IMG/VR virus record: IMGVR_UViG_3300027519_000001
Length of the DNA: 64,000 nucleotides
Reading direction: 5' to 3' (one strand)
Source: a virus
In this document: positions 6,301-21,980 of the stretch, in pieces
Position numbering within the stretch: the stretch's first letter is position 1
How the letters are laid out: each line of letters opens with the position of its first letter
Program-made: the position numbers and the translations under genes
Notes under the pieces: model-generated
Told to the model about the DNA's origin: nothing
The model's database searches: none
What the model saw: the letters and a program-made list of their open reading frames with translations, nothing else

Positions 6301-8119
6301 ACGTATTGAAGGACCCGGTGAGATTTATGCAGACAACACGCTAGACTTCTCGTATGGATTAGTTGTTGATTACGACGACCTTGGTGACACCTACATGGTA
6401 TCAAGTGATTGGCGTGTAGATGTAGTTAACAAAGTAGAAGTACTAACTGCTTTGCTTGCAGTAAATGAAAGCTACCGTTCACTGTTGCCTACTCATGATG
6501 ATTTGAGGATTTATGAGGTCAATGAATTAGACGAAGAACAGTTATCAGAAATCTTCCAGTCAATTCAAATTGCTGAAATAGATAACGAAGGTTATTTGTA
6601 TCCACGTATCAATATTAACGCACAGCTTTTGGTATACGCCGACTATGATGACGGCATTACGCAGTTTACTGAGCAGTTAGATGTTTACATGAAAAGTACT
6701 AATGCTATTCTTACAGGCATGTACATGTATAACATTACTAACGATGGTCAGTTTGAACGTAGCAGTAATACAACTCCGTCAGATGCAACTGGTGCTGGTG
6801 AGATTATACGTCTTCCTGATGTAGCAGTACTGCCCGGCAATCCCGATAGCTTTGCAGACATAGACCCTACAAGTGGTAAGCTATTCTATAGATTCAAAGC
6901 AAAGGTCGAGCGTAACGACGAATTTGGTACGTTCTACGATCCAGAAGTTGTTGAATGGTCATTAGAAACATCGAGTAATAAAGTAAGCCTTACTCAGCCG
7001 AGCAGAAACGTAATTGGACTTCTTGTTAATCCTGTCGAGACAGATACACAAGTAATTATTAACGGCGTGTACACTGAGGAATTTGCTAGAAGTACAGACG
7101 CAGTAGATGCAGGCAACCCTGCTGCTGCCCAAGATAGAGTTGAAACAGTAGCTAGCTCGTTACGTTTTATTATTGAAAGCTCTAAAGCAATCGATGTAAT
7201 TGAGCAGTCAGGTCAAACAGTTGTTTACGATGACCCTGATTCAATCTTTGTACCTACTGTTAGAATTCAAAGACGCGATGGAACATACGTTACTGACCCA
7301 AATGCTATGGTAACATGGTATGTAGTTAGCGGACCTATTGGTGTTTCATATAATGCCGAAACTAAAGGTTTTAAGATTCCTAAGTTAACGAACAATACAG
7401 TAATGGTACTACGTGCTACAGCAAAAGAAGGGTTAAGAACTATATCAGAAGATTTTGAGTATACACTACTTATGCAGTTTACTCCTACTGACATATCCTT
7501 AACATTACCTCAAACTGTACAGACTGCTATTATAGACGCAGGTGAATACGAGCTTGGTGCTATTATGACAGGTTCTACTTCACAAGGTCCTGATACTCTT
7601 GACGTTTCAGACAGTGCTTTCTTTTTCTTTAACTACAATGAACCTGACGCAGAGTTTGACGAAAACATTTTGTCTATCTCTCCAATCGTTGAAAACAAAG
7701 AAATAGAAATCTCTATCAAGGCTAAAGACTATCCCAGTTTCACGGACAAGAAGACTATCAAAGTATATTCTAGCTTTCCTTTGTTTGGAACATACTTAGA
7801 CGGTGTTAACAATTCTACCCGTTTCAATGATAACTTGGGAGTGTTCGAAAAGCAGGCTAGTAGGACAGGCGGTACGTTTGAAATCAATCCAGATGCAGAC
7901 GAGTATGGATACTTCGCACACCCTAAAACATTGGGTCGAGCAGAGTTTACATACATTCCAGAACCAAATAGCGATACATCATTGTTTGGCGAATGGCAAG
8001 AACCTATTACTGTTACACGCGTCTATGAAACCGACTTAGATGAAGCTTGGTATCTATATAGAACAACGGCTAGAGGTTTTAGTCGAGGCAAGTTCTCTGT
8101 AAGGTATATACCAGAATAA
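3317..8119 (+). CDS. large baseplate/fibre-network protein with repeated Ig-like (Big_2-type) domains (1600 aa)
   Basis: It occupies the P2 gpI / T4 gp7 slot after the J-like gene. Repeated segments of about 90 aa fit the pattern v.sI.i..p....eg....l.a.v.y.dG......a.Ws, for example VVESIEIIGPSSVLEETRNVYQLQATWSNG and LEIIYAENMPEGTRTFLTAIVTYANGEQEQANATWS. Confidence 0.6.
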   Translation: MSKTATDLLVDILKEDDLWSSFADVAQRVYDSKIGSPLKELERIRYIDQDTDPVFIERAIRQAGINLTSEFFEHNKEKLTNSFYQLIKFWETDGNPNYPKFISFLLGRDFKEDVLYTSDYIEFSPTHGKLVVDGGNWYSTSTVDLAVDVQGLKESLTLRITTEDIPSIRELLGYSTASDEERVSINETIRTLQLKELTTSDSPAIVRKLIENRILQVYYQFAPIEKVVRDIYLTISAVANIGMFGSSLIKPKRYVDPNKPAIVSMEFVIPSKVQGFRKYPAHVLVSYMDETQASEYPISVSGQYVKSFDGKTIEFLDIDFVSDIEFTYTAKGTTNTVMVELYPIGTPFIPDELQIVGSIRPLEEATNTYRLITRHDNVREYGDEDRITWSIDSEHASFKDNVLVVEEIFEEYSATVTAKHRNVDGTTSSETLDVTLVPKERNVVAKSIRLVAEQYVDNAWVELNTLTDVVQGMTGVFLTAIVEYTDGSEKELYSLPAQFRAGSTELTLPYWQTSTSATSISETGEIQIPIVYRDFTAEFVVNYQEDDRVLNGSIKVFFKKPRLVVESIEIIGPSSVLEETRNVYQLQATWSNGMISIVDADWSSRQTANSTSTEISDSGLMTAPSVDDDAINVSVNAIIDVYRYDEDDNESIVKLATSKTVEVKALRREVNSIEALMPQSLSQGNTNRVRFYVDWNDNSNTQIIPYRVELKQGDRVLSKYVRLDSGYELEHEDNVPVILSLSEEQFSAVDESLDHPQFLIDYLSDTEETNFEQIKGLVDIYIYYINPLDVPEEGVVLTDEELDLTEVPYSTYATSISVTPKIFLTEDLEIIYAENMPEGTRTFLTAIVTYANGEQEQANATWSIEPSFIDQEIEADLTQGQFTIEGMVKALIGVDRAWLDSNELTQAQVDRLINGELFFKVLAEEVQADWTQAVKNIIDNDPETEYPRAVIQTRTLLDGEQQSFKVTARYFQQVESVTITSNANPVQAIDKILNSRIEGPGEIYADNTLDFSYGLVVDYDDLGDTYMVSSDWRVDVVNKVEVLTALLAVNESYRSLLPTHDDLRIYEVNELDEEQLSEIFQSIQIAEIDNEGYLYPRININAQLLVYADYDDGITQFTEQLDVYMKSTNAILTGMYMYNITNDGQFERSSNTTPSDATGAGEIIRLPDVAVLPGNPDSFADIDPTSGKLFYRFKAKVERNDEFGTFYDPEVVEWSLETSSNKVSLTQPSRNVIGLLVNPVETDTQVIINGVYTEEFARSTDAVDAGNPAAAQDRVETVASSLRFIIESSKAIDVIEQSGQTVVYDDPDSIFVPTVRIQRRDGTYVTDPNAMVTWYVVSGPIGVSYNAETKGFKIPKLTNNTVMVLRATAKEGLRTISEDFEYTLLMQFTPTDISLTLPQTVQTAIIDAGEYELGAIMTGSTSQGPDTLDVSDSAFFFFNYNEPDAEFDENILSISPIVENKEIEISIKAKDYPSFTDKKTIKVYSSFPLFGTYLDGVNNSTRFNDNLGVFEKQASRTGGTFEINPDADEYGYFAHPKTLGRAEFTYIPEPNSDTSLFGEWQEPITVTRVYETDLDEAWYLYRTTARGFSRGKFSVRYIPE

Positions 8120-8155
8120 CTATAATTTTATAGAAACATTAATGGAAGTTTTATA

Positions 8156-10582
8156 ATGACACCAAACATAATTCACTTAACAGAAGCAGGGCGTCAAGCA
8201 CTTCTTAATGCAGATGCGGGTGGCATTCGTGTCGCCCCTAAAGTATTCAAGCTTGGTGACTTAGAAGTATCAGACGTTGAAGACTTCTACGAACAAGAGG
8301 GTGGTATCCCAGACAACCTCGTAAGCAACACTGTTTTTACAGGTAACATTTCTTACGTACAAGTATTGTCAGAAAATACAGTTCGATTCACATTGGATAT
8401 TCCACAAGGTATACCTGATGCAAACGCAACTAGCTCTATCACTATTGGTGAGCTAGTTGTTTTATTAGAAGACAACACAGTGCTAGGTCATTGTGTTTAT
8501 TCTGAGCCTTACGTTAAGTCATCTGCCGAAGCAATTCGCATTGAAGCTATGTTGCACATTAGCGAAGTAGATGCAGGCACTATCGATGTAACGCTATCTG
8601 AGTTTGGTTCTATCCCATCTGTACCTACAGTTGAAGACTTGCCAAGCCCTGTAAATGCTATTGCTAATGCAGTTGGTGTACAGACATTAGAATGGTCGCT
8701 AGATGGAAACGCAGTACCGGGCATTGCTCAGAAGTTCGGACCTGGAGGCGCGCATTGGGGATTCTCTGGATACACTAGAATCTTTAACGGTGAAGTTGGA
8801 TACGAAAACGTTTACGACGAAACTGAATTCAAACAACCTGATGCTAGCGAACTTGGTAACGTACAAGCTGGCGACATAGTTGTAGTGCAAGTCATTCAAG
8901 GACCCGGGGCTGGTGAGACTCGTATCTTTGATGCTACTCAGAACGGCGATAACATTGCATATATTGCTAAAGGAACTGGATTTAGTGCGCTGTCAGATAC
9001 TAGCGTTATTTCAATCTGGTATCCACGTTCAGGCAACTACGGTGCTACATCATTAAGTTGGTTAAACGAAGAAGTACCGTCTAACTATGTATTAGAGCGT
9101 GGAGTTACAAGCCCACGTTGGGTGCCTCCGCTAAAAGCTTCTGGTAATGGCAGTACGCTTTACCACCCGCCCGGCACATTAAAGATGAATGCTTACGTAA
9201 CAGAGCCAGAAGATGCAGCAGGTTCTCGTACATTTGTTCTATATCAAAAAGACTTGTCGCAAGCACAAAGCCAGAAAGCCCAGATTCATTACTACAGCCA
9301 TGCTAAGAATAACAACTATGCAATGGTAGCACTTGGCGGCGTTACACAGCACAGAGAAGCTTTTGAGATTACAGAAAACGCAATTGAATTCTCAGAAGAC
9401 TTGCCTAGTGAAACCCAGATTGATGCTCGTTTGTTTACATTGTCTCCAAGCACAGGCGCACTGCTAAATATTCGCTATGCAGAATACATTGCAGATGGTA
9501 ATCAAACTGAATTCGATATCCCTGTAGTAGGTGAAGAAAAGATAACTAGTTCTAGTCAGTGTCTTGTATACGTAGACCCTTTCTTGCAGAGCATAAACAA
9601 TTACGTTATCGATGAAGATAATCAAAAGATTGTTTTCACTACTGCACCTGCACAAGGGCTACTTGTAGAAATCAATGCGTTCATTACACAAGAAGTTCGT
9701 GGATACGCAACTCATGTTCACACTCAGAACTATGTTACTAAAGACCTGACTCGTGTTCTTCAATTGCCATTCAGTCCTCAAGATAAGGGTCTGGTGTTTG
9801 TATCTGAACAGGGTCTTCATGCTAATCGTAGTCTATATGATATTGTAGATGACCGTTTGATTTTCCGCAGAGACATTGATGCGAATCAAGAAATCGAAGT
9901 TCAGATATTTAGAAACGTATTAAGTCAAGGCAATCCTGATAGTAGTATTCAAGGTGTTGTTACAGACGCATTAGTAACGTCTAAGAGTATTGAGCTTGTA
10001 CGTCACAACTTAGAGCCGTTACGTATTCCAGTTCCTCGATTCAATATGATAGGTGGAACAGGTATTAAAGTTTCTGGTACTTTTCCTGAGTACACAATTG
10101 AATCTAAACTAAGTCAGCAAATAGCAAAAGACAAACCTGTTGTGTTCAATAACCAACACAGAATAGCTAACGCGGAAGAGATTATTTATACTCAACGTGT
10201 GAACTTTAAAGGTGATGTTATTGTTAAAGCTACAGCAGACTTCAATGCTAGACTAGGCCCCGGCTTTACATCAGCCAGTGGTTTAGAAAACATTGAATTT
10301 GTTCTTGGATTCAGAACGCACAGCCTTAACGAACCTGAATATGGTAGAAACATTAAAGGTACTGGCAGCAGTGGTTTCAATGTAACTAATCCAGAACAGC
10401 AAGGCACTTATGCGTATGCCGACAAATCAATTACTCAAAGCTGGAATGTATTGAAAAACAATAACCCAACTGGTGCTATTGAGATAGTTGCTAAAATGCG
10501 TGTACGTAACGGTCGCGTAAGTGACTACGGCTCAGCACTAACGATTAACTTGGTAGTCGATGTATCGCCTAATTTGGGGTAA
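8156..10582 (+). CDS. tail fibre protein with P2 gpH-type N-terminal tail-collar domain (808 aa)
   Basis: The N-terminus IIHLTEAGRQALLNADAGGIRVAPKVFKLGD...ITIGELVVLLEDNTVLGHCVY parallels P2 gpH (ITTAGAAKLAAA...VGDG...ELGLYDDAGTLIAVAN). Confidence 0.65.
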   Translation: MTPNIIHLTEAGRQALLNADAGGIRVAPKVFKLGDLEVSDVEDFYEQEGGIPDNLVSNTVFTGNISYVQVLSENTVRFTLDIPQGIPDANATSSITIGELVVLLEDNTVLGHCVYSEPYVKSSAEAIRIEAMLHISEVDAGTIDVTLSEFGSIPSVPTVEDLPSPVNAIANAVGVQTLEWSLDGNAVPGIAQKFGPGGAHWGFSGYTRIFNGEVGYENVYDETEFKQPDASELGNVQAGDIVVVQVIQGPGAGETRIFDATQNGDNIAYIAKGTGFSALSDTSVISIWYPRSGNYGATSLSWLNEEVPSNYVLERGVTSPRWVPPLKASGNGSTLYHPPGTLKMNAYVTEPEDAAGSRTFVLYQKDLSQAQSQKAQIHYYSHAKNNNYAMVALGGVTQHREAFEITENAIEFSEDLPSETQIDARLFTLSPSTGALLNIRYAEYIADGNQTEFDIPVVGEEKITSSSQCLVYVDPFLQSINNYVIDEDNQKIVFTTAPAQGLLVEINAFITQEVRGYATHVHTQNYVTKDLTRVLQLPFSPQDKGLVFVSEQGLHANRSLYDIVDDRLIFRRDIDANQEIEVQIFRNVLSQGNPDSSIQGVVTDALVTSKSIELVRHNLEPLRIPVPRFNMIGGTGIKVSGTFPEYTIESKLSQQIAKDKPVVFNNQHRIANAEEIIYTQRVNFKGDVIVKATADFNARLGPGFTSASGLENIEFVLGFRTHSLNEPEYGRNIKGTGSSGFNVTNPEQQGTYAYADKSITQSWNVLKNNNPTGAIEIVAKMRVRNGRVSDYGSALTINLVVDVSPNLG

Positions 10583-10585
10583 CGT

Positions 10586-12097
10586 ATGGCACAAGAAGCT
10601 AGCATTAAAAGTCTTGTACCTAGCAAGAATAAAGAGGGAACTAGTTTAAAGACTGATTCCCTAAAAAGTTTAGAATACAGTTCAGAACAACCTGTTAGCG
10701 AAAGAGCTATTGCCCAAATCGGATTCAATAAGAGAACAGGCACACTCAACTTTATCAGACATAATGGTGAAGCTGTAGAAGTGTCTGGATTCTTAACACT
10801 TGGTCAGATGGGTGAGGGACCTCGTGGAGAAAAAGGCCCTAATGGTAAGAAAGGACGCGATGGTAGGGTCGGTCGTGATGGTAAAAAAGGAAAGACTGGA
10901 TGTGAAGGACCGATTGGACCTACTGGTGAATCTGGAAATAAAGGTCTAGATGGTAACGATGGTGAAACTGGTATTACTGGATATACAGGATGTCCCGGTC
11001 CTATTGGATTGCGTGGAGACACTGGTGAAGATGGTGACGTTGGTAACATGGGGCCTGTTGGACCTGCTGGACCTAGCTGTATAGTTGGTGAGCGTGGTAT
11101 TCAAGGAATTAAACCAGCGGAAACAGTATACTATGGAGAAAACGCACCAGACTCGAACTACTTTCTTTGGGCACGACCTAGTGGTACTGCTCTTCCATCC
11201 CCTATAGTAGAAGCTGAACCAATGTCAGGACAAGTAACAGATGTTAGTGTTAGACTAGCACATGTTACTGATGATTCTTACGGCGGTAACGCTATTCTTT
11301 CATTGACTAACTTTGAAGGTGGAATAGGCCCTTTCAGTTACAAGTGGATTGATACGGATAGTAGTATACGCGAAGCTGGAATTTCTATTGATGGTTCTTC
11401 TACTTCACGTTCATTAAAGATTGCTGCATTACGTACTATTCAACCTCAACAAAGCTACAACTTTTCAGGTAAGATGGAACTTGTTATTACCGATAAAGGA
11501 GATAACAATAAACGTCTGTCTATCAAAAATATTCGTTTCTCTTTCTCTGGTTATAATAGTCGTGACAACGAAGAAGAGACAGAGCCTGGTGGTCCTGTAA
11601 TAGTTGGCGGTGGTGGTTGCGTTCATGAAGATACACCAATTCTTATGTGGGATGGTAGTACTAAACGTGCCAAGTACGTCAAAGTAGGCGATACGTTACA
11701 GTCTTTTACTTCGGTAGGAATGCTAGACGAAGACGAGAGCGACTGGAAAGAGTGGAAGACTACAGAATTCAAGAATCCTAAGATTGTACCTACTACAGCG
11801 CGTGTTGCTTATAACGCTAGCTATGTGCAGTACTGGAAGATTAACAATGACGTATGTATTACGCAAGACCACCCTGTTCTGGTTAGAAAAAATCAGCAGT
11901 GGGGTTGGTATGATGTTACGGAAGTTTCAGTTGGTGACTTCCTTAAAGGTACAGACGGAGTTATTGAAATCAAGTCTATCGATCACATTAAAGAAAATCT
12001 CAATGTTGTCGTACTAGATGTTGAACCGTATGATAACTACTTTGCCGGACATGAGCCTATTGTTGTCCATAACACAACACAGACGGTTAAGCACTAA
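10586..12097 (+). CDS. collagen-like fibre protein with PKD-like domain and C-terminal Hint autoprocessing domain (503 aa)
   Basis: 29+3 GXY triplets. FSYKW...ELVITDKGDN is PKD-like. GGGGC followed by Hint blocks that end VVHN. Confidence 0.85.
   Translation: MAQEASIKSLVPSKNKEGTSLKTDSLKSLEYSSEQPVSERAIAQIGFNKRTGTLNFIRHNGEAVEVSGFLTLGQMGEGPRGEKGPNGKKGRDGRVGRDGKKGKTGCEGPIGPTGESGNKGLDGNDGETGITGYTGCPGPIGLRGDTGEDGDVGNMGPVGPAGPSCIVGERGIQGIKPAETVYYGENAPDSNYFLWARPSGTALPSPIVEAEPMSGQVTDVSVRLAHVTDDSYGGNAILSLTNFEGGIGPFSYKWIDTDSSIREAGISIDGSSTSRSLKIAALRTIQPQQSYNFSGKMELVITDKGDNNKRLSIKNIRFSFSGYNSRDNEEETEPGGPVIVGGGGCVHEDTPILMWDGSTKRAKYVKVGDTLQSFTSVGMLDEDESDWKEWKTTEFKNPKIVPTTARVAYNASYVQYWKINNDVCITQDHPVLVRKNQQWGWYDVTEVSVGDFLKGTDGVIEIKSIDHIKENLNVVVLDVEPYDNYFAGHEPIVVHNTTQTVKH
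10817..11113 (+). repeat. collagen-like GXY tract (29 uninterrupted triplets, then CIV, then 3 more)
   Basis: Gly at every third residue from G78 to S164. There are two G-C-x-G-P triplets. Confidence 0.95.
11618..12073 (+). other. Hint (intein/Hedgehog/BIL-type) domain
   Basis: Cys345 (tgc 11618-11620) follows GGGG. CVHEDTPILMWDG (block A), ITQDHP (TxxH, block B), VVLDVEPYDNYFAG (block F), IVVHN (block G), then Thr. Only 7 aa follow. Confidence 0.8.
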
Positions 12098-12558
12098 TGA
12101 TTAAGCAAAGGATTACTACAGGAACAGATACTCTTCAAAGTAAGAATACACAAGATGTATTCGTAGGCGATCAGATTACTGCATTAAGAATAGGTGCTAT
12201 GCCTAGTTCTAGATTTGGCAATCAAGAGTTCGCTATGGCGTGGGTTACAAAAGACGTTCAAGGAAAAGTGATTGAAGGCACTGTTATAGACCGCGAAATA
12301 TTTATACGCAGTGGATACTATAAAATAAACTTGATGCACTTTGTAGCCGACCAACCCATTTTAATCAAGCGTACTGATTTTTGGGAATGGAAGAAGCCTC
12401 CACAAATTCAAAAAGGCGATGTTATGTTTGGACACTCTACGCAATTTAAAGTAGAGACAATTTCTTTTATAGAAGTTAGTGTACAGACATTTGAATTAAA
12501 GGTTGATATGTGCGATACATATTTTCTAAACGGCATTTTAGTACATAACAGGGTTTAA
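12097..12558 (+). CDS. free-standing degenerate Hint-like protein (153 aa)
   Basis: It aligns by eye with both Hint domains: VGDQITAL; YYKINLMHFVADQPILIKRTDFWEW against YWKINNDVCITQDHPVLVRKNQQWGW; and LKVDMCDTYFLNGILVHN. It lacks Cys1, and TxxH is replaced by ADQP. TAATG overlap with the upstream gene. Confidence 0.65.
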   Translation: MIKQRITTGTDTLQSKNTQDVFVGDQITALRIGAMPSSRFGNQEFAMAWVTKDVQGKVIEGTVIDREIFIRSGYYKINLMHFVADQPILIKRTDFWEWKKPPQIQKGDVMFGHSTQFKVETISFIEVSVQTFELKVDMCDTYFLNGILVHNRV

Positions 12559-12560
12559 TT

Positions 12561-13196
12561 ATGCTTACAAAAATTCCTGTAACTATGGTACGATCATCAG
12601 GTGACGAAGGCAGTAGTGTAGTTGTCAAAAACGGAAAGCTTGCTACGTCTAGCGAAGCAGTCGATACCACCAGCGAAATCGAAGCTGGATTCTATGACCA
12701 AGGAAGCGGCATTCTTACACTAACTTTTGCTAGCGGTAATGAGATTGCTATTACTGGTTTTCCGACATTTGATAGCATTCCTCAGGGTCAACAAGGGCCT
12801 CAGGGAGAAGCTGGTGAAGATGGTCGTGATGGACGCGATGGTAAAGACGGCGAAGTTGGTGACGAAGGCTGTGTTGGACCTATTGGACCTACAGGCCCTC
12901 GTGGAGAAGATGGACAAAATGGTCGTGATGGACAAGTTGGACTTCCCGGTCCTGCTGGATGTGCTGGACCTATGGGCCCTCGTGGACTACAAGGAAAGAA
13001 AGGTGAGCGTGGTGATGTAGGCCCAACTGGACCTACTGGTGCTACAGGTCCTACGGGCCCACGTGGAGAGCAAGGCCCTGCTGGAAACATCAACATAGTT
13101 ATTAGTAGTACAGACCCTGGCTCTAGCATAGGACCTGGCTCTATTTGGGTAAATCCAGATATAGGTCAGTACGATGATGACTTAGACCAATTTTAA
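12561..13196 (+). CDS. collagen-like fibre protein (211 aa)
   Basis: 33 GXY triplets. It shares the N-terminal module FYDQGSGILTLTF..ITGFPT and the C-terminal DPGSSIGPGSIWVNP motif. Confidence 0.85.
   Translation: MLTKIPVTMVRSSGDEGSSVVVKNGKLATSSEAVDTTSEIEAGFYDQGSGILTLTFASGNEIAITGFPTFDSIPQGQQGPQGEAGEDGRDGRDGKDGEVGDEGCVGPIGPTGPRGEDGQNGRDGQVGLPGPAGCAGPMGPRGLQGKKGERGDVGPTGPTGATGPTGPRGEQGPAGNINIVISSTDPGSSIGPGSIWVNPDIGQYDDDLDQF
12786..13082 (+). repeat. collagen-like GXY tract (33 triplets)
   Basis: G76 to A174, with Gly at every third residue. Confidence 0.95.
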
Positions 13197-13208
13197 GAGA
13201 GACTTATT

Positions 13209-13703
13209 ATGGCTATTACAAAAGCTAGCTTGAACATGATTAGTGGTGGTTCTACTGTAGGTAACGTAGAATCTTCGGGTAGAGGTTTGTCTATTGTAGC
13301 AGATGATGAAGTAGCAGACACGTTAGAAGGCTACTATGATAATACGTCTGGTACTCTTACTCTAAGCATCCCAGGTTATCCAGTTCTACGTATAAATAAC
13401 TTCATGACGCAAAGTGATGTTGGTACTGGTAAAGAGGGACCGCAAGGTGTTTCTGGTAACGCTGGTATTAATGGACTTCTTGGCGAAAATGGATTGCGCG
13501 GTGAGCGTGGATGCAGAGGTCCTCGTGGCCCAGTTGGAGAACGTGGTGTTCGTGGTGCGCAAGGAAAGCAAGGGGAACAGGGACCTATTGGTGCTACTGG
13601 ACCTCAAGGCGAACATGGATTAGATGGTAAAGTAAGTATCTATATAACTACAGAAGACCCAGGTCCTGTTGGTGCTGGTGCTTTATGGATTAAACCTCGT
13701 TAA
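13209..13703 (+). CDS. collagen-like fibre protein (164 aa)
   Basis: About 22 GXY triplets. N-terminal YYDNTSGTLTLSI module and C-terminal EDPGPVGAGALWIKP. Confidence 0.85.
   Translation: MAITKASLNMISGGSTVGNVESSGRGLSIVADDEVADTLEGYYDNTSGTLTLSIPGYPVLRINNFMTQSDVGTGKEGPQGVSGNAGINGLLGENGLRGERGCRGPRGPVGERGVRGAQGKQGEQGPIGATGPQGEHGLDGKVSIYITTEDPGPVGAGALWIKPR
13428..13634 (+). repeat. collagen-like GXY tract (about 22-23 triplets)
   Basis: Periodic Gly from G74 to about V142. Confidence 0.9.
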
Positions 13704-13712
13704 GGTAGTGCT

Positions 13713-16700
13713 ATGACAACTACAAGACTAACAGTTCGTAATGCACAAGATAATGGTTGGCTCGACCAATGCAGCAGCGAGTTCTATTTCCGTGACGGGT
13801 TTAATAGTACGTGGATACGTTTTTATCCAGACCAAACACAAGTAAGAGATAGCGGAAACAACACTTGGATGCAGGTGGACTGTACTTTTGACGATGTACT
13901 AGACGACCCGTGTGCGAACCTAGCTATGCTTACTTCTCTTACTTGTTCTAACTCTATTCCAATTACAGAAGCAGGTTCTGGTGATGGTAGTGGTAGCGGT
14001 GGAAACGAGTTTGATATACTACGTGGATATCCAGAAGGCTACGACTTACCAGACGCAGGTCAAGCAGGCTTTGGACTAGAGAGAGCTTATGGTACGTATG
14101 AAGGGCAAGTTATCAACAGACCTGGAATCGAAAACACAAAAGAAACGTACACTAAGCCGGGCACTAATTCGTTCCTTGGAAGAGGTAGCTATGAAAATCC
14201 TAGTTATCTATCCACTCATACATTTTCTAATGGAAGTGCTATCACTGAAACAATTTATGAGTTAGGTGACAGAGGTGGTATATTTGAAATTCTTTATGCT
14301 TGTTACCATGAACAAGGTATCTCTATCGATGTATACTATCTTGGTGCGTTAATTGCTTCCACATGTGGCAGAGTTACGGGTAGAGGAAAACTAGAGTTCG
14401 GTCTAGACCCTGCAATTGGTTCTGGTGAAGACAGAGTAATGATACGAGTTCGCGGTGAAGACAAGTGCAGATGGATGTATTCCACTATAGGCCCTAAGTC
14501 ATTTCTTACTCTTCAAGATTTTGAACCCGGCAACAATAGACACTTAGCGCAAGTTCGTACTACTGAGTATATTGGTACTAGCTTGTTTCCAGCACCTGCG
14601 CATAGCCGTGTAACTCCATTCGAGAACAGAATTACAGATGGACAATATTGGGTAGAGTACGTTCACACAGTTGGACTAGTTGACCCTGCTACAGGTCCTT
14701 ATATTCTTCATCTTAATTATGAGACTTGGGAAAATTCAGACTGGGTTGAAGTCTATCACGGCGGTGAACGTATTGCTTCAACTATGGGAAATAAAGACAC
14801 TGACGGATTACTATCTATTGTGTTCGACCCTTGGAGATTTGCAAACGCTGTTCCTGATATCGTAGTTAAAGTAATGGCTAGACAGCGCGAGTACGGAGCA
14901 GATATACTTTCACAAGAGTACATGCTTTACGATCCAAATACTCGTGGATACAAAGAAAATCGTTGGCCGTGTGAAGTACCAGAGTCAGGTATAAATAGTG
15001 CTGGACACCACAGTACAGAAGACCATTATTTAATGAATGACCTCGATAACGGAGTAGCTTCAATTAAAGTTACTGGATATGGAGACTTTACTTATACTGC
15101 TAGCGTATTTAACAAGAAAGGTGAATTGATAACTGCTAAACGTAGCAGAGGTACGACTTTCTTACAGTGGTTCAGACTTGAAGAAGATGTAGGCTATGAA
15201 GACTTGCGAGAAATCAGTGTACGTATCGATTGCCCTATTGACAGCAGTTGGGCTTATTGGGTTGGCTGTTATATTCCTCTCCTAGATGTAGAGATTGATG
15301 ATCAGGAAGTTCCAAACTGTCCTGACGTTCAAATAGCTATCAACAGTATCACAGTAGCGGAAGGTTCTACAGCTAAATTTACAGTAGGTCTTAACTATCC
15401 AATTGACGAAGACTTGTCTTTGAATTACAGAACGGAAGATATGACTGCTAGTAGCGAAGCCGTTGCAGCAGGCGAAGTTAACCCGTACCCTCTTTTCAGA
15501 GATAACAATGATGTATCTTCGGTTGTCTACTCAGATGACGATTTAGGATATACATTGATGTTAGAGGCTGACCCTCATAGACTATACGACATTGACAATT
15601 ACTTACAAACTGCTACTACTCAGAATGCTACTGATGGAAGAAGTGACGTAGACCGCAGCGTATCAACGTATGCCGAACTTAATGACTATCAGAAGATGAT
15701 AGTTAACATGTTGAAGCACCGTCTTGGTTCTTTATCTAATAAAAAGCTTTTAGTGGTAACCCACCAGCGTATTCAATACTATGCAACTCCGTATGACCCT
15801 GATCCAAGGGTGGAAGAGCGAGAGTATGAAATAGTTTACCAAATGTCTACAGTTATGGACTTCTTCACTAAGTCACTGACAAACATTTACGGTATTCAGG
15901 TTGATGTTCATGTAGTTAATGAGTTTGACTCGCATGGTACAGTTAAGCAAGGCAGCTTTACTAATCAAGATGCAACCTATAGCTCGCCTAAAAATATTGT
16001 AGGTAACTATGATATTATTGTATCTGATCAGTTTAGTGAGTGGAGACACCACGTTAAAGAAAATGCAGGAGTAGATACTTCTAATCATTTCTTGAATAAG
16101 ATGTTTAGTCTTGAACAAGGTACTGCTTTTGGTGTTGCTGTAGCTAGAGCAGCTAAAGGTTCTAAACCTATGGTAGTGATTAGCGCAGCAGCTTTCGATA
16201 TCAGTACCGCAGGTAACTACTATAGATTTGCAAATGCTCATGCGAAAGACCTTATAAACTCTTTCAACATAAAAAGTCATGTAGACATATTAGCGTCAGA
16301 TTCTACTATTAGTAGTCCGTCTGGTGCGCGTAGTGTATCTGTTCAGCAAATAAAAGACAAAGCAGGCGATAGCTATCTATTTGAAGACTTGTCTGGGTCG
16401 GGTTCATTTGAAAACCAAAGCGGTGTTAAAAGAATGACAAAGTTCGTTCTTGCTAACACAGGTTCAGATGGAAGCCCTTCTACACCTATAGCTAATGCTG
16501 ACTATCAAGCCAAGACAGGAACTTTAACTATTCCAGCAGGCGCAGGTAGTGGTACTATTAGCGTCAATACTTTTGCGGACAGTGAACGTGACCCGAATGA
16601 GCAATTTAAAGTTATCATCTACGATGCGAGCGTTGGAGCTATAATTCAAGATGAAGGCATTGCTACTATTGTAGAATCTTCTGCCCCTGTTCAAGGAGAT

Positions 16701-17810
16701 ATGAACATTGTGTACACTGGAACTCTTAGAAGTACTGGTACTGCAAAAGTTACTGCAACTAAGTACGCACACCCTGAAACTATTCTAGCTTTCAAGATTA
16801 ACTCTAACAAGTTAGATATGGATTGGGGTTCAGACGGTGACTTGGGTGATGGTGTTCCCGAATACTCAGAAGACAATGGAAAAGTATCTGTATTCACTAT
16901 GTCTAAAACTGCGGATAGTGCTACAAGTGGAGTCGATGACAAAGCAGCAGGTACTAACTGGACTAGTAGACTATTAGCGGAATTTGAATTTGACCCAGCG
17001 CGTTCTTATACCTATAAGTGGAACGTTGTTACAGTTAACAATTCAATTCCAGGCTCACGCGTATCAGTTAAGCCTTACTGTGCCTTTGATGAATCCAAAG
17101 AAACATCGACGGTACATAGTAATGTTTCTAACTACAGCGCTAATAACCAATGCATGAGTATTCAGTTTGAACGTGCGGTTTCTAATTCGAGCTTAGCAGG
17201 AATTGCCAATTTAACAGTAGAGATATTCGTTAAAGACGACTTAGGCAATATACAAAAGTCTTCACCTATAGAAGTGAGCTTGCAGCAAAAAGCACAAGTT
17301 TACTCAGGCGGTGGCGGTGGTGGTTGTATATCTTTTGGAACAATGGTCGTGCTAGAAGATGGAAAGACTATCAACGCTGAAAGACTTAAAGTAGGTGATA
17401 AGGTAGTAGGTGAATACATTCCAAATATGATTGACGAAAACGTCGAAGGCTGGGAAGATTGGACGACTGAATCCGTTAATGGAAGATATCCTGTAGTAAG
17501 TACTGTTAGAGCAGTTAAGCATGATTGGTTCAGAGAGTATTGGGTTATCAACGGTGATGTGGAAATAACTGAACAGCATCATATATTTGTTAAGCGTAAC
17601 GATACTTGGCAATGGATGGACGTTAGGGATATACGTATCGGCGATAAACTTCTTTCTATTTACGAAGATAAAGAGATAGTTGTTGGTACGTTAAACCGAA
17701 TAGACGATCCTATTGATGTAGTGTGCTTAGATGTAGAAGAAAACGACTGCTACTATGTAGGTAAGAATCCTTTCTTGGTGCATAACATTAATTACGAGAG
17801 AGCAAAGTAA
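13713..17810 (+). CDS. giant structural/adhesin-like protein with interrupted Calx-beta, PKD-like domain and C-terminal Hint domain (1365 aa)
   Basis: Calx-beta halves at aa 538-581 and 927-990. YTYKW...LTVEIFVKDDLGN is PKD-like. GGGGGGC is followed by Hint blocks ending LVHN. Confidence 0.8.
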   Translation: MTTTRLTVRNAQDNGWLDQCSSEFYFRDGFNSTWIRFYPDQTQVRDSGNNTWMQVDCTFDDVLDDPCANLAMLTSLTCSNSIPITEAGSGDGSGSGGNEFDILRGYPEGYDLPDAGQAGFGLERAYGTYEGQVINRPGIENTKETYTKPGTNSFLGRGSYENPSYLSTHTFSNGSAITETIYELGDRGGIFEILYACYHEQGISIDVYYLGALIASTCGRVTGRGKLEFGLDPAIGSGEDRVMIRVRGEDKCRWMYSTIGPKSFLTLQDFEPGNNRHLAQVRTTEYIGTSLFPAPAHSRVTPFENRITDGQYWVEYVHTVGLVDPATGPYILHLNYETWENSDWVEVYHGGERIASTMGNKDTDGLLSIVFDPWRFANAVPDIVVKVMARQREYGADILSQEYMLYDPNTRGYKENRWPCEVPESGINSAGHHSTEDHYLMNDLDNGVASIKVTGYGDFTYTASVFNKKGELITAKRSRGTTFLQWFRLEEDVGYEDLREISVRIDCPIDSSWAYWVGCYIPLLDVEIDDQEVPNCPDVQIAINSITVAEGSTAKFTVGLNYPIDEDLSLNYRTEDMTASSEAVAAGEVNPYPLFRDNNDVSSVVYSDDDLGYTLMLEADPHRLYDIDNYLQTATTQNATDGRSDVDRSVSTYAELNDYQKMIVNMLKHRLGSLSNKKLLVVTHQRIQYYATPYDPDPRVEEREYEIVYQMSTVMDFFTKSLTNIYGIQVDVHVVNEFDSHGTVKQGSFTNQDATYSSPKNIVGNYDIIVSDQFSEWRHHVKENAGVDTSNHFLNKMFSLEQGTAFGVAVARAAKGSKPMVVISAAAFDISTAGNYYRFANAHAKDLINSFNIKSHVDILASDSTISSPSGARSVSVQQIKDKAGDSYLFEDLSGSGSFENQSGVKRMTKFVLANTGSDGSPSTPIANADYQAKTGTLTIPAGAGSGTISVNTFADSERDPNEQFKVIIYDASVGAIIQDEGIATIVESSAPVQGDMNIVYTGTLRSTGTAKVTATKYAHPETILAFKINSNKLDMDWGSDGDLGDGVPEYSEDNGKVSVFTMSKTADSATSGVDDKAAGTNWTSRLLAEFEFDPARSYTYKWNVVTVNNSIPGSRVSVKPYCAFDESKETSTVHSNVSNYSANNQCMSIQFERAVSNSSLAGIANLTVEIFVKDDLGNIQKSSPIEVSLQQKAQVYSGGGGGGCISFGTMVVLEDGKTINAERLKVGDKVVGEYIPNMIDENVEGWEDWTTESVNGRYPVVSTVRAVKHDWFREYWVINGDVEITEQHHIFVKRNDTWQWMDVRDIRIGDKLLSIYEDKEIVVGTLNRIDDPIDVVCLDVEENDCYYVGKNPFLVHNINYERAK
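17325..17786 (+). other. Hint (intein/Hedgehog/BIL-type) domain
   Basis: Cys1205 (tgt 17325-17327) follows six Gly. CISFGTMVVLEDG, ITEQHH (TxxH), VVCLDVEENDCYYVG, FLVHN. Seven aa (INYERAK) follow, and the +1 residue is Ile. Confidence 0.8.
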
Positions 17811-17811
17811 T

Positions 17812-21137: not shown

Positions 21138-21980
21138 ATGTCGTTAACTAAAGTCAACCTAAAAATGATATCACCTTCGCCGGGTTCGGAAGCTGGCGAT
21201 ACTGTTTACAATACAAAGCAGGGTTTGCAAACACAAAATCCTGCCGAACAAACTTCTAGCATGATTGAAAAGTTCGATGCGGAGTTTGATAAGCAGTCAG
21301 GCGTGTTGTCTATCACTATCAATAATAGAACAGTACGCGTTGCAGGAATTCCAACAGAGCTTAACTTACCATCTGGACCTATTGGACCTCGTGGTAAAGA
21401 AGGTCAGCCTGGAATCTCTGGTAGAAATGGACGTGACGGACCCAAAGGGGAACAAGGGTGTATCGGACCTAAAGGAGATAGAGGTCCTCGTGGAGCTACA
21501 GGCCCAACTGGTGAACGTGGTATCCAAGGAGTTATTGGACCTATAGGCCCAACTGGTTCTACAGGCCCAACTGGTGAACGTGGTATAGACGGTGAAGAGC
21601 CAGAATATTTTGCTGGTGTACGTAACGAAGAAGGCTCACATTCATTTATTGAAGTAGATGGAGAGGGAAATACTACACAAGGTCGTTCACCGTATGTACG
21701 TGCAATTCGTAGTGGTGCAATGCATCAGTGGGGTAGATTTATTAATGATACTGGTACAGAAGAAGTAACTGTATTGTTTTCTGAACCATTCAAAAATCGT
21801 GTTACAGGCCTAATGGTATTCTTCAATGACCCGTATTCATATCAAAGTCAGAACTACGAGTTTGGTACGTATATTGATATTGATAGCGACATAGGTGGCT
21901 TTACTATTGGTGTTAAAGGAACTTTTAGTTTGCCTCTATCAGATTTATGGGACTTTAATTGGGTTGCATTTGGAGATTAA
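21138..21980 (+). CDS. collagen-like fibre protein with globular C-terminal domain (280 aa)
   Basis: 25 GXY triplets. It has the same N-terminal module (FDKQSGVLSITI..VAGIPT) as the three collagen-like genes at 10.6-13.7 kb. Confidence 0.85.
   Translation: MSLTKVNLKMISPSPGSEAGDTVYNTKQGLQTQNPAEQTSSMIEKFDAEFDKQSGVLSITINNRTVRVAGIPTELNLPSGPIGPRGKEGQPGISGRNGRDGPKGEQGCIGPKGDRGPRGATGPTGERGIQGVIGPIGPTGSTGPTGERGIDGEEPEYFAGVRNEEGSHSFIEVDGEGNTTQGRSPYVRAIRSGAMHQWGRFINDTGTEEVTVLFSEPFKNRVTGLMVFFNDPYSYQSQNYEFGTYIDIDSDIGGFTIGVKGTFSLPLSDLWDFNWVAFGD
21375..21599 (+). repeat. collagen-like GXY tract (25 triplets)
   Basis: G80 to E154, with Gly at every third residue. Contains G-C-I-G-P. Confidence 0.95.

What the first reader, a model, noticed from the sequence alone, without database searches (positions are those of the whole stretch)
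11603..12097. Collagen-like fibre protein ends in a poly-Gly/Cys-primed Hint autoprocessing domain
Seen in sequence: after the collagen tract and a PKD-like domain, the protein reads ...PVIVGGGG-C345. Every Hint block is present in order: CVHEDTPILMWDG (A), ITQDHP (TxxH, B), VVLDVEPYDNYFAG (F) and IVVHN (G). The +1 residue is Thr, and only 7 residues follow. Established knowledge: Hint domains (inteins, bacterial intein-like BIL domains, Hedgehog C-terminal domains) convert the peptide bond before Cys1 into a thioester. They resolve it by splicing, by hydrolysis, or, as in Hedgehog, by transfer to an external nucleophile at a Gly-Cys junction. Inference: the fibre either cuts off its own C-terminal 159 aa, acting as a disposable folding or trimer-registration domain, or uses the Gly344 thioester to join the fibre covalently to another molecule. 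I do not recall Hint domains being described as maturation modules of phage fibres, though I cannot search to confirm this.
Basis: partly seen in the sequence, partly recalled or inferred. Interest (0 to 1): 0.85.

Follow-up and report, generated by a model that had tools for sequence, protein, structure and literature searches.

The report
Self-excising Hint domain ending a phage fibre
A collagen-like tail fibre of an uncultured giant phage ends in a bacterial-intein-like (Hint) self-processing domain, one of a large and little-studied phage family whose tiny C-terminal tail almost always carries a lysine, hinting at lysine-directed self-ligation rather than simple cutting.

Summary
ORF 10586-12097 (503 aa) reads N-terminal domain, 29 Gly-X-Y triplets, Ig-like sandwich, acidic/poly-Gly linker, then GGGG|C345, T426xxH429, H495-N496 and a 7-residue tail. 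Profile, fold and family evidence make the last 159 aa a Hint domain, closest to bacterial intein-like (BIL) domains rather than mobile inteins or Hedgehog. It is under purifying selection. The fact is not new: the 52%-identical homologue in phage NCTB is deposited as "tail protein, contains intein domain". I found no paper on what such domains do in fibres. The window holds two more copies: the 1365-aa protein at 13713-17810 (GGGGGG|C...HN-INYERAK) and a free-standing, catalytically degenerate 153-aa copy at 12097-12558. Among 162 sequences, 146 carry the domain at the extreme C-terminus of fibre-like proteins. Cys1, TxxH and HN are near-invariant, -1 is usually Gly and +1 is variable. New here: 124 of 128 short tails contain Lys (25-65 expected; K:R 134:9). 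The best structural match, Tetrahymena BIL2, ligates a C-terminal Gly to a Lys side chain. Best reading: both junctions fire, the Hint excises, and Gly344 is most likely passed to tail Lys502. The chemistry is inferred, not shown.

The parts
10586..12097 (+). Gene for the 503-aa collagen-like fibre protein with a C-terminal Hint domain
   Evidence: ORF list. PHROG 38766 'virion structural protein' E 1.4e-66 over aa 27-498. 52% identical to phage NCTB BN7874_136, in the same gene order.
10586..10813 (+). N-terminal domain (aa 1-76) shared with the paralogous short collagen fibres; presumed virion-attachment end (inference)
   Evidence: PHROG 38766 also covers aa 12-188 of the 211-aa paralogue.
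10817..11077 (+). Collagen triple-helix tract, 29 uninterrupted G-X-Y triplets (aa 78-164)
   Evidence: Pfam Collagen E 4.9e-15; run counted.
11225..11557 (+). All-beta sandwich domain (aa ~214-324), Ig/FN3-like; PKD membership not confirmed
   Evidence: AlphaFold model strands 15-124 of the modelled segment, block pLDDT 80-97. Only weak Ig-like Foldseek matches. BFVD two-domain matches are named 'Fibronectin type III'. No Pfam hit.
11558..11617 (+). Acidic then poly-Gly linker (aa 325-344, ...EEETEPGGPVIVGGGG) ending in the -1 residue Gly344
   Evidence: Sequence. Low pLDDT (<50) at modelled residues 132-143. Family-wide -1 is Gly in 91/146 with G/S/T-rich linkers.
11618..12073 (+). Hint (BIL-type) domain, Cys345 to Asn496, 152 aa. 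Cys345 codon 11618-11620; T426-Q-D-H429 at 11861-11872; H495-N496 at 12068-12073
   Evidence: conservation; profile vs PDB; model and fold; local HMM E 1.1e-65, by construction; dN/dS 0.08-0.09.
12074..12094 (+). Mini C-extein / tail TTQTVKH (aa 497-503); Thr497 = +1, Lys502 codon 12089-12091
   Evidence: Lys is present in 124/128 family tails of 1-12 aa, K:R 134:9.
12097..12558 (+). Free-standing 153-aa degenerate Hint protein. Met1 sits at Hint position 1, block B T->V and H->Q, and it ends HN-RV. Its start overlaps the fibre's stop codon (TAATG)
   Evidence: HMM built without it gives E 6.5e-24. Alignment. 38% identical to NCTB 'intein domain protein'. The NCTB copy's BFVD model superposes on the window Hint with TM 0.90. 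dN/dS 0.12.
13713..17810 (+). 1365-aa Calx-beta-containing protein with a second C-terminal Hint. GGGGGG|Cys1205 (Cys codon from 17325), H1357-N1358 (ends 17786), tail INYERAK (17787-17807)
   Evidence: Translation. Pfam Calx-beta and PT-HINT (sub-threshold, 23.1 bits). Coordinates. 54% identical to NCTB 'large intein domain protein'.
12561..13703 (+). Two short paralogous collagen fibre genes (211 aa and 164 aa) without a Hint; context for the module

Best explanation
The last 159 residues are a bacterial-intein-like (A-type-BIL-like) Hint domain plus a 7-residue mini C-extein, placed at the presumed distal end of a collagen-like fibre of an NCTB-like jumbo myovirus. Proposed mechanism, all of it inferred: after folding, Cys345, helped by Thr426/His429, converts the Gly344-Cys345 peptide bond into a thioester. 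The invariant His495-Asn496 drives Asn cyclisation at the C-terminal junction. The thioester is resolved by an amine of the protein's own tail. The epsilon-amine of Lys502 is the favoured candidate and would give a Gly344-(N-epsilon)Lys502 isopeptide. The alternative is the alpha-amine of Thr497 after C-cleavage. The 17.5-kDa Hint would then be discarded, leaving a fibre of residues 1-344 capped by the heptapeptide (about 36.75 kDa). The Hint would act as a removable, self-quenching maturation or assembly module. Shown here: domain identity, intact catalytic residues, purifying selection, family-wide architecture and the Lys-rich tail. Inferred: that cleavage happens at all, the order of the steps, the Lys nucleophile, and the biological purpose.
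For: Hint identity: profile vs PDB gives BIL 2lwy at E 2.3e-12 and Tetrahymena BIL2 (6tmm/6y75) at 2.5e-11, followed by inteins. Foldseek on a pLDDT-86.8 model ranks 6y75, 2lwy, inteins, Vint and Hedgehog 1at0. 58/89 relatives hit Pfam PT-HINT.
Catalytic equipment across 146 C-terminal family members: Cys1 in 134 (the rest are N-terminally truncated), Thr 139, His 142, His-Asn 144, Gly at -1 in 91.
Selection: dN/dS is 0.08-0.09 in the Hint part against two 92-95%-identical environmental contigs, the same as the rest of the fibre.
Both junctions matter: HN is invariant although +1 is not a nucleophile in most members (A35, K24, V14, T12).
Tail Lys: 124/128 tails of 1-12 aa hold Lys, against 25-65 expected for K frequencies of 3.7-12% and never reached in 2e5 simulations. 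K:R is 134:9 against a background of 3488:2774 (Fisher p 1.5e-23). One-residue tails are K in 15 of 16. The only tail with Arg and no Lys belongs to the catalytically dead free-standing copy. At structural K/R columns inside the domain Arg substitutes freely, e.g. K98/R13 and K82/R25. Tandem Hint arrays in relatives have HN-K-G(n)-C linkers.
Precedent: BIL2, the best structural match, lacks a +1 nucleophile and forms a C-terminal-Gly-to-Lys-epsilon isopeptide (PMC8616854 section 2.4). A-type BILs with C-terminal His-Asn sit in variable regions of non-conserved proteins and auto-cleave (PMC7765530).
Against: There is no biochemical or proteomic evidence for any cleavage in this protein or its homologues. 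The RefSeq label 'virion structural protein' does not say which part is in the virion. In this protein +1 is Thr, so ordinary O-acyl splicing is chemically open. The last four residues of the model have pLDDT < 50 and no coordinates were available, so Lys502's reach to Gly344 could not be measured. Lys sits at variable distances from HN (+1 to +10) and is more regular relative to the C-terminus (last or penultimate in 91 of 134 tail lysines), which could reflect a different role such as a C-terminal recognition motif. Capping a fibre with a short branched peptide has no obvious benefit. The Lys statistic rests on the top 150 representatives of one search plus 12 sequences from the window, related phages and near relatives, and these sequences are related to one another. 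The block F His of BILs and inteins is replaced by Asp483, so the chemistry may differ from the precedents.
Confidence: 0.5

Rival explanations
1. Disposable folding or assembly domain removed by plain hydrolysis. The Gly344-Cys345 thioester is attacked by water, the fibre ends in a free Gly344 (35.96 kDa), and the Hint plus tail (18.3 kDa) leaves. This would be functionally analogous to the Peptidase_S74 intramolecular chaperone of other phage fibres. The tail Lys and His-Asn would then have structural or regulatory roles.
For: Cys1, TxxH and Gly -1 are conserved. The Hint always sits at the extreme C-terminus of very diverse fibre-like N-terminal parts (146/162), as expected for a generic removable module. 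BIL domains are known to auto-cleave (PMC7765530). Homologues of the 1365-aa protein in Alexandra-like phages lack the Hint altogether, so it is dispensable for that fibre's final form.
Against: N-terminal cleavage alone needs neither the terminal His-Asn nor a tail, yet HN is invariant (144/146) and the tail Lys is nearly so (124/128), with Arg almost excluded. A monomeric Hint has no known trimerising activity that could register a collagen helix.
Confidence: 0.22
2. Covalent coupling in trans. The Gly344 thioester is passed to a lysine or other nucleophile of another molecule, such as another virion protein, a partner fibre chain or a host surface component. The fibre would be permanently tethered, as BIL2 conjugates ubl4 to several substrates. 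The tail Lys would be only a default acceptor.
For: BIL2 conjugates its N-extein to different substrates through Lys. The Gly-Gly-type C-terminus resembles ubiquitin-like donors. Small Hint-ended proteins sit directly downstream of large fibre genes in other phages and in a P2-like prophage, a position suited to a protein that joins a fibre. A catalytically dead free-standing Hint is kept next to the fibre gene.
Against: No acceptor is identified. The built-in tail Lys would compete with any external acceptor. Nothing in the sequence data distinguishes cis from trans.
Confidence: 0.12
3. Classical mini-intein splicing through Thr497. The thioester is transferred to the Thr497 hydroxyl, Asn496 cyclises, and an O-to-N shift gives a normal peptide bond G344-T497.
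For: All canonical intein residues are present in this protein (Cys1, TxxH, HN, Thr +1). The +1 Thr is kept in the nearest relatives and in Alexandra/Yoloswag-like phages (TTQTVK[HY], TDIVA...).
Against: +1 is Ala in NCTB, Ile in P0004 and in the window's own 1365-aa protein, and Cys/Ser/Thr in only 19 of 145 family tails. There is no homing endonuclease, no intein-free allele with a contiguous conserved extein, and the 'C-extein' is 1-12 residues. These are features of BIL domains, not mobile inteins.
Confidence: 0.1
4. Catalytically silent structural domain. The Hint fold stays on the mature fibre tip as a binding or decoration domain and no bond rearrangement occurs.
For: The neighbouring 153-aa copy shows that the fold can be kept under selection without the catalytic residues. 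The label 'virion structural protein' is compatible with a full-length product.
Against: Near-invariance of precisely the catalytic positions across sequences that are only 24-60% identical is hard to explain without catalysis.
Confidence: 0.05

Closest known systems
BIL2 domain of the Tetrahymena thermophila BUBL1 polyubiquitin-like locus (PDB 6Y75/6TMM; Chiarini et al. 2021, cited in PMC8616854)
   Same: It is the best structural match (Foldseek E 2.2e-8, TM 0.77 on the target) and the second-best profile match (2.5e-11). It has Cys1, TxxH and a C-terminal Asn, lacks a +1 nucleophile, has an N-extein ending in Gly, and has a Lys in the C-extein that accepts the acyl group as an isopeptide.
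   Different: BIL2 sits between two ubiquitin-like domains in a eukaryote and its acceptor Lys lies in a folded domain. Here the N-extein is a phage fibre and the 'C-extein' is a 1-12-residue tail. BIL2 keeps the block F His (Zn-linked), which is Asp483 here. Sequence identity is only about 18%.
A-type bacterial intein-like domains, e.g. Clostridium thermocellum BIL4 (PDB 2LWY); Amitai 2003 and Dassa 2004 as summarised in PMC7765530
   Same: Best profile match (E 2.3e-12) and TM 0.81. The size is about 140-150 aa with no endonuclease. His-Asn is conserved at the C-terminus and +1 is not conserved. The host proteins are variable, non-conserved and extracellular-type. These domains auto-cleave and, from my own recollection of Dassa 2004 and Aranko 2013, splice without a +1 nucleophile.
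   Different: The described BILs are in bacterial secreted or adhesin-like proteins, usually with a sizeable C-flank. This clade is overwhelmingly at the extreme C-terminus of phage fibre-like proteins and has a Lys-bearing mini-tail, a DESxxxWxxW insert and a block F Asp.
Peptidase_S74 intramolecular-chaperone domain of phage tailspikes and fibres (K1F endosialidase, T5 pb1)
   Same: Same position (C-terminal end of a trimeric fibre) and presumably the same logic: a domain needed before or during assembly that removes itself. It co-occurs in the same fibre modules elsewhere.
   Different: Unrelated fold and chemistry (Ser-Lys dyad protease, obligate trimer). No Pfam match in the window protein.
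Hedgehog C-terminal autoprocessing domain (PDB 1AT0)
   Same: Hint fold (Foldseek E 3.8e-4) and a Gly|Cys junction forming a thioester that is resolved by an external nucleophile.
   Different: Hedgehog has a sterol-recognition region after the Hint and no terminal His-Asn. Here only 7 residues follow and HN is invariant.
Phage NCTB BN7874_136 / _135 / _132 (GenBank LT598654)
   Same: Orthologous module: 52%, 38% and 54% identity to the three window proteins, in the same order. Already annotated 'contains intein domain', 'intein domain protein' and 'large intein domain protein'.
   Different: This is annotation only. I found no functional analysis. Its +1 residue is Ala rather than Thr.

Membership tests
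Hint (Hedgehog/intein) superfamily | Hint fold | tested here: met
   AlphaFold model pLDDT 86.8. Foldseek top 14 PDB hits are all BIL or intein chains (rank 15 is a pilin), and 21 of the 23 hits at E <= 1e-3 are BIL, intein, Vint or Hedgehog. TM on the target is 0.74-0.81 and rmsd about 3 A for the BILs.
Hint (Hedgehog/intein) superfamily | Block A nucleophile (Cys/Ser at position 1) and block B TxxH | tested here: met
   Cys345, Thr426 and His429 are present. They are conserved in 134, 139 and 142 of 146 relatives.
Hint (Hedgehog/intein) superfamily | Significant sequence match to curated Hint models | tested here: inconclusive
   The window protein alone is below Pfam's gathering score (Intein_splicing 24.2 vs 35.8 bits) and has no NCBIfam hit. 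The family profile reaches E 2e-12 against solved BILs, and 58/89 relatives hit PT-HINT.
A-type bacterial intein-like (BIL) domain | Conserved C-terminal His-Asn, with no homing endonuclease | tested here: met
   H495-N496 present; 144/146 in the family. The domain is 152 aa with no insert of endonuclease size.
A-type bacterial intein-like (BIL) domain | No conserved +1 Cys/Ser/Thr; located in variable regions of non-conserved proteins | tested here: met
   +1 is A35/K24/V14/T12.... N-terminal parts range from collagen, Ig, PKD, fn3, Calx-beta and BACON to tail-fibre domains.
A-type bacterial intein-like (BIL) domain | Match to Pietrokovski's A-type block motifs specifically (as opposed to B-type) | not tested
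   The original block definitions were not available. The assignment rests on the best hits to 2LWY and BIL2 and on the HN terminus.
A-type bacterial intein-like (BIL) domain | Demonstrated auto-cleavage or splicing | not testable with these tools
   Needs expression of wild type and C345A / N496A.
Canonical mobile intein | Conserved +1 nucleophile and insertion into a conserved site of a conserved host protein, with intein-free alleles | tested here: not met
   +1 varies even among orthologues (T, A, I). The C-extein is 1-12 aa. All orthologues carry the domain at the very end.
Hedgehog-type Hog domain | Sterol-recognition / adduct-recognition region after the Hint; no terminal Asn required | tested here: not met
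   Only TTQTVKH follows the Hint, and HN is invariant.
Pretoxin Hint (PT-HINT) of polymorphic toxins | Hint followed by a C-terminal toxin domain | tested here: not met
   There is no domain after the Hint in 146/162 sequences. The window proteins are below the PF07591 cutoff, although relatives match the model strongly.
Peptidase_S74 intramolecular chaperone | Pfam PF13884 match / Ser-Lys dyad domain | tested here: not met
   No hit at E <= 1.
BUBL-type isopeptide-forming BIL (works-like claim) | Gly at -1, no obligatory +1 nucleophile, acceptor Lys in the C-flank | tested here: met
   Gly344. Variable +1. Lys in 124/128 tails with Arg excluded. Precedent text.
BUBL-type isopeptide-forming BIL (works-like claim) | Isopeptide product demonstrated | not testable with these tools
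   Needs MS/MS of the mature C-terminus.

The most novel reading that the evidence does not exclude
Phage fibre proteins carry a self-contained, ATP-independent Gly-to-Lys isopeptide ligase. The C-terminal BIL-type Hint activates the fibre's terminal glycine as a thioester and hands it to a lysine. The usual acceptor would be the conserved lysine of its own mini-tail. In some settings (small Hint-ended proteins next to large fibres, tandem HN-K-Gn-C arrays, the dead free-standing copy) the acceptor would be a lysine of another virion or host-surface protein, covalently stitching fibre components or tethering the phage.
Probability: 0.3. Interest if true: 0.8.

Novelty: new variant of a known kind. 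Interest (0 to 1): 0.6.

Why it matters
If the chemistry is as inferred, a large and mostly uncultured group of phages matures its fibres with intein-like chemistry rather than with the known S74 chaperone-protease. The conserved tail lysine would also extend the one known case of BIL-mediated isopeptide formation (a ciliate ubiquitin-like locus) to viruses. Three things become directly testable: how collagen-like phage fibres are finished, whether covalent Gly-Lys links exist in virions, and whether these compact 150-residue domains, which need only Gly at -1 and a nearby Lys, could serve as protein-ligation tools. If instead the domain merely hydrolyses itself off, it is still an undescribed but unsurprising use of a known autoprocessing fold.

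Tried and rejected
- Canonical intein, Hedgehog-type, PT-HINT toxin-release and Peptidase_S74 readings each failed a defining feature (see membership table).
- Single-sequence searches were weak: Pfam was below cutoff, phmmer vs PDB gave E 0.08-0.9, and NCBIfam gave nothing relevant. Family profiles were needed.
- The word-indexed protein search returned only 4 and then 20 proteins.
- megablast of 6 kb against isolated phages found nothing.
- The search for related loci with the 35-sequence alignment failed for lack of a conserved stretch. A narrower alignment gave 23 viral loci but only one genomic locus, and that scan is pattern-limited.
- None of ten literature searches returned a paper on Hint or BIL domains in phage fibres (the six aimed at that question). 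The Erwinia phage Y3 paper, which has virion MS, is not held. The PaBG, Dickeya and CBB papers mention only terminase inteins or none.
- Model coordinates are not exposed, so the Lys502-Gly344 distance could not be measured.
- I considered that the small ~150-aa family members were free-standing Hints. Except for the window and NCTB copies, they start at the conserved internal Met and keep TxxH, so they are probably truncated gene calls.
Full report
**What is there.** The window carries a + strand ORF at 10586-12097 encoding 503 aa. Its layout is:
- an N-terminal domain (aa 1-76)
- 29 uninterrupted Gly-X-Y triplets at aa 78-164 (Pfam Collagen E 4.9e-15)
- a short post-collagen segment
- an all-beta sandwich at about aa 214-324
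- an acidic then poly-Gly linker (aa 325-344, ...EEETEPGGPVIVGGGG)
- Cys345 and a 152-residue domain ending in His495-Asn496
- the heptapeptide TTQTVKH

The 'PKD-like' label for the middle domain is not confirmed. Pfam gives no PKD hit at E <= 1, and the structural model supports only an Ig/FN3-like sandwich.

**Is it a Hint domain?** Yes.
- Alone, the sequence is borderline: Pfam Intein_splicing scores 24.2 bits, below the 35.8 cutoff, and phmmer against PDB sequences gives E 0.08-0.9, though the three hits at E <= 10 are an intein precursor, a BIL domain and an intein.
- A full HMMER scan of 1.84 billion representative proteins with aa 335-503 found 813 relatives at E <= 1e-3 and 174 at E <= 1e-10.
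- A 35-sequence profile of the domain hits the solved bacterial intein-like domain 2LWY at E 2.3e-12 and the BIL2 domain of the Tetrahymena BUBL1 locus at 2.5e-11, then many inteins.
- 58 of 89 full-length relatives match Pfam PT-HINT at E <= 1e-3 (best 6.5e-42), and others match Hom_end_hint, Intein_splicing, Hint, Hint_2 and Vint.
- An AlphaFold model of aa 200-503 (mean pLDDT 86.8) matches BIL2 (E 2.2e-8, TM 0.77 on the target) and 2LWY (TM 0.81). Inteins, the Vint domain and Hedgehog 1AT0 follow.

**Where the window comes from.** The nearest isolated relative is phage NCTB (LT598654), a jumbo myovirus. Its homologue is 52% identical and already annotated 'putative phage tail protein, contains intein domain'. 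It lies in the same gene order: large tail protein, ~800-aa protein, collagen-Hint fibre, small 'intein domain protein', two short collagen fibres, then 'large intein domain protein'. At about 30% identity the fibre, with its Hint, is conserved in Erwinia, Dickeya and Yersinia jumbo phages (Alexandravirus, Yoloswagvirus, Y3), 52 records in all. That group is described as 'hairy Myoviridae' and placed with NCTB, PaBG and Lu11 (PMC6143709, PMC7412058). The window is 92-95% identical in nucleotides to uncultured viral contigs, namely IMG/VR UViG_3300020428_000007 (200 kb) and a Logan assembly. Against those contigs the Hint-coding part shows dN/dS of 0.08-0.09, the same as the rest of the gene. 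It is therefore maintained by selection.

**More copies in the same module.** An HMM scan of all six frames finds exactly three Hint domains in the 64 kb.
- The fibre itself.
- The 1365-aa Calx-beta protein at 13713-17810. It ends ...YSGGGGGG|C1205...ITEQHH...FLVHN1358-INYERAK and is 54% identical to NCTB's 'large intein domain protein'.
- A free-standing 153-aa protein at 12097-12558, whose start overlaps the fibre's stop codon (TAATG). Its Met1 occupies Hint position 1, block B has lost Thr and His (FVADQP), and it ends HN-RV. The NCTB copy's predicted structure superposes on the window Hint at TM 0.90. The window copy is conserved (38% to NCTB; dN/dS 0.12, from only 12 substitutions). It looks like a pseudo-enzyme and its role is unknown.

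Homologues of the 1365-aa protein in Alexandra-like phages share only the first ~530 residues and have no Hint. The domain is therefore a modular add-on.

**The family.** I analysed 162 sequences: the 150 best representatives plus 12 from the window, related phages and near relatives.
- 146 carry the domain at the extreme C-terminus of proteins of 109 to 3105 aa.
- The N-terminal parts include collagen, Ig, PKD, fn3, Calx-beta, BACON and Phage_tail_fib domains, and PHROG families annotated as tail fibre or tail protein.
- Column statistics over the 146: Cys1 134 (the rest lack the N-terminus), Thr426 139, His429 142, His495 and Asn496 144 each. Gly is at -1 in 91, preceded by G/S/T-rich linkers.
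- Family-specific invariants are W387/W390 in a DESxxxWxxW insert, N420, E480, D483 and Y485. D483 aligns with the block F His of 2LWY and BIL2.
- The +1 residue is not conserved (A35, K24, V14, T12...). Even among orthologues it is T, A or I.

This rules out a classical mobile intein. It fits the published description of A-type BIL domains: a conserved C-terminal His-Asn, location in variable regions of non-conserved proteins, and auto-cleavage (PMC7765530).

Context elsewhere is also fibre-related. In a P2-like prophage of Lysobacter cavernae a 268-aa Hint-ended protein directly follows the Peptidase_S74-containing tail fibre gene, between baseplate gene I and gene V. In a metagenomic contig a 231-aa one follows a 3726-aa S74 fibre. 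A degenerate-pattern scan gave 23 viral loci against one locus in 185,579 species genomes, but the pattern limits that comparison.

The tail after His-Asn is short, 1-12 residues in 128 of 145 cases.
- It contains lysine in 124 of those 128. Expected counts are 25, 49 or 65 tails for K frequencies of 3.7%, 8% or 12%, and the observed value was never reached in 200,000 simulations.
- Lys makes up 17% of tail residues against 3.7% in these proteins.
- K:R is 134:9 against 3488:2774 overall (Fisher p 1.5e-23).
- One-residue tails are K in 15 of 16.
- The only tail with Arg but no Lys is that of the catalytically dead 153-aa copy.
- For comparison, only 28 of 62 long ORFs in the window have a Lys in their last seven residues.
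- Inside the domain, structural basic columns tolerate Arg, e.g. K98/R13 and K82/R25.
- All 23 IMG/VR loci that end with HN plus a tail also have a tail Lys.
- Relatives with tandem Hint repeats have linkers of the form HN-K-G(n)-C.

So the lysine, not merely a positive charge, appears to be selected. Caveat: these sequences are related to one another, although they come from clusters at <= 50% identity.

**Mechanism.** Established knowledge: in Hint domains, Cys1 with the block B Thr/His turns the preceding peptide bond into a thioester, and the terminal Asn, assisted by the penultimate His, cyclises to cut the C-terminal junction. Both sets of residues are invariant here, so I infer that both junctions are active. 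That makes plain N-terminal cleavage an incomplete explanation.

Because +1 is usually not a nucleophile, the thioester must be resolved by an amine or by water. Two precedents exist for BILs.
- Ligation without a +1 nucleophile, by the alpha-amine freed after Asn cyclisation (Dassa 2004, cited in PMC7765530; Aranko 2013; both from my own recollection).

Three observations fit the second route best: the near-universal tail Lys, the Gly at -1, and the one-residue 'K' tails. A single lysine residue released as a free amino acid could hardly be retained for alpha-amine attack. For this protein the predicted outcome is a 36.75-kDa fibre (1-344 plus the heptapeptide joined through Lys502) and a discarded 17.5-kDa Hint.

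None of this is shown, and the purpose is also inferred. The options are a removable assembly or solubility module at the presumed distal tip that quenches itself cleanly, or a ligase able to use other lysines.

Confidence by claim:

| Claim | Confidence |
|---|---|
| Hint/BIL identity | about 0.97 |
| Cys345-dependent processing | about 0.8 |
| Lys-mediated resolution | about 0.35-0.4 |

**Rivals.**
- Hydrolytic self-removal: plausible, but it leaves HN and Lys unexplained.
- Trans-ligation to another virion or host protein: possible, with no acceptor identified.
- Classical splicing via Thr497: chemically open in this lineage, but not the family rule.
- A silent structural domain: contradicted by the conservation of the catalytic positions.

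**Novelty.** The presence of an 'intein domain' in this fibre family is already recorded in GenBank for NCTB, and UniProt auto-annotation labels many uncultured-phage proteins as Hint-containing. The bare observation is therefore not new. None of ten full-text searches returned a paper that describes or tests Hint or BIL domains as parts of phage fibres. Jumbo-phage genome papers mention only terminase or RNR inteins. As far as I could determine, three things have not been described: the clade-specific features (extreme C-terminal position on fibre-like proteins, Gly -1, Lys mini-tail, block F Asp, WxxW insert), the link to BIL2-type isopeptide chemistry, and the dead free-standing copy. I rate this a new variant of a known kind, of moderate-to-good interest and cheaply testable.

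**Limits.**
- No experimental data are available.
- The family statistics rest on the top 150 of 813 hits.
- Literature coverage is restricted to open-access text.

Noticed in passing
window 12097-12558 (+): Free-standing 153-aa Hint-fold protein. Its Met1 sits exactly at Hint position 1, block B Thr/His are lost (FVADQP), and it ends HN-RV. It is translationally coupled to the fibre gene (TAATG) and conserved in NCTB and in IMG/VR relatives, with dN/dS 0.12 (from only 12 substitutions). It may be a pseudo-enzyme partner of the fibre Hint; its function is unknown.
   Followed up: partly
window 13713-17810 (+): The 1365-aa Calx-beta protein ends in a second active-looking Hint (GGGGGG|C1205 ... 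HN1358-INYERAK). Its homologues in Alexandra/Yoloswag-like phages share only the first ~530 aa and lack the Hint.
   Followed up: partly
relatives P0070, P0110, P0116, P0132, P0135, P0148, P0151, P0066: These are tandem arrays of Hint domains joined by linkers of the form HN-K-G(n)-C. A Lys immediately follows each terminal Asn, and a short Gly run precedes the next Cys1. What such arrays produce is unclear; released or polymerised K-Gn peptides are one possibility.
   Followed up: no
L006 8001-8807 (Lysobacter cavernae P2-like prophage); L007 8001-8696: Small (230-270 aa) proteins ending in this Hint type lie directly downstream of Peptidase_S74-containing tail-fibre genes. In the prophage the position is the one held by the tail-fibre assembly gene of P2-like phages.
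   Followed up: partly
L014, L016, L024-L026, L029 (upstream ORFs): Giant (1400-1900 aa) fibre-like ORFs immediately upstream of small Hint-ended proteins contain a weak internal Hint-like match (E 1e-5 to 1e-7), followed by about 280 more residues.
   Followed up: no
window 10586-12097, aa 387-390 and 483: Clade-specific invariants: a DESxxxWxxW insert between blocks A and B (W387 in 119 and W390 in 110 of 146), and Asp483 (140/146) at the position where 2LWY and BIL2 have the block F His.
   Followed up: partly
window 10586-11110 (collagen part): Cysteines embedded in and just after the triple-helix tract (KTGCEGP and GPSC[IL][IV]G) are conserved in the window protein and in homologues P0001-P0004. 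They may be inter-chain disulfide knots.
   Followed up: no
window 12561-13196, 13209-13703, 21138-21980 (+): Three further collagen-like fibre genes. The first two share the N-terminal domain and a post-collagen motif (..P......[LI]W..P) with the 503-aa protein. That raises the possibility of a heterotrimeric fibre in which only one chain carries the Ig-like and Hint extension.
   Followed up: no
window 5597-18080: 92% nucleotide identity to IMG/VR UViG_3300020428_000007 (200 kb), and 95% over window 7586-12179 to a Logan contig of SRR28144564. No megablast match to any isolated phage. The window belongs to an uncultured NCTB-like jumbo phage.
   Followed up: partly
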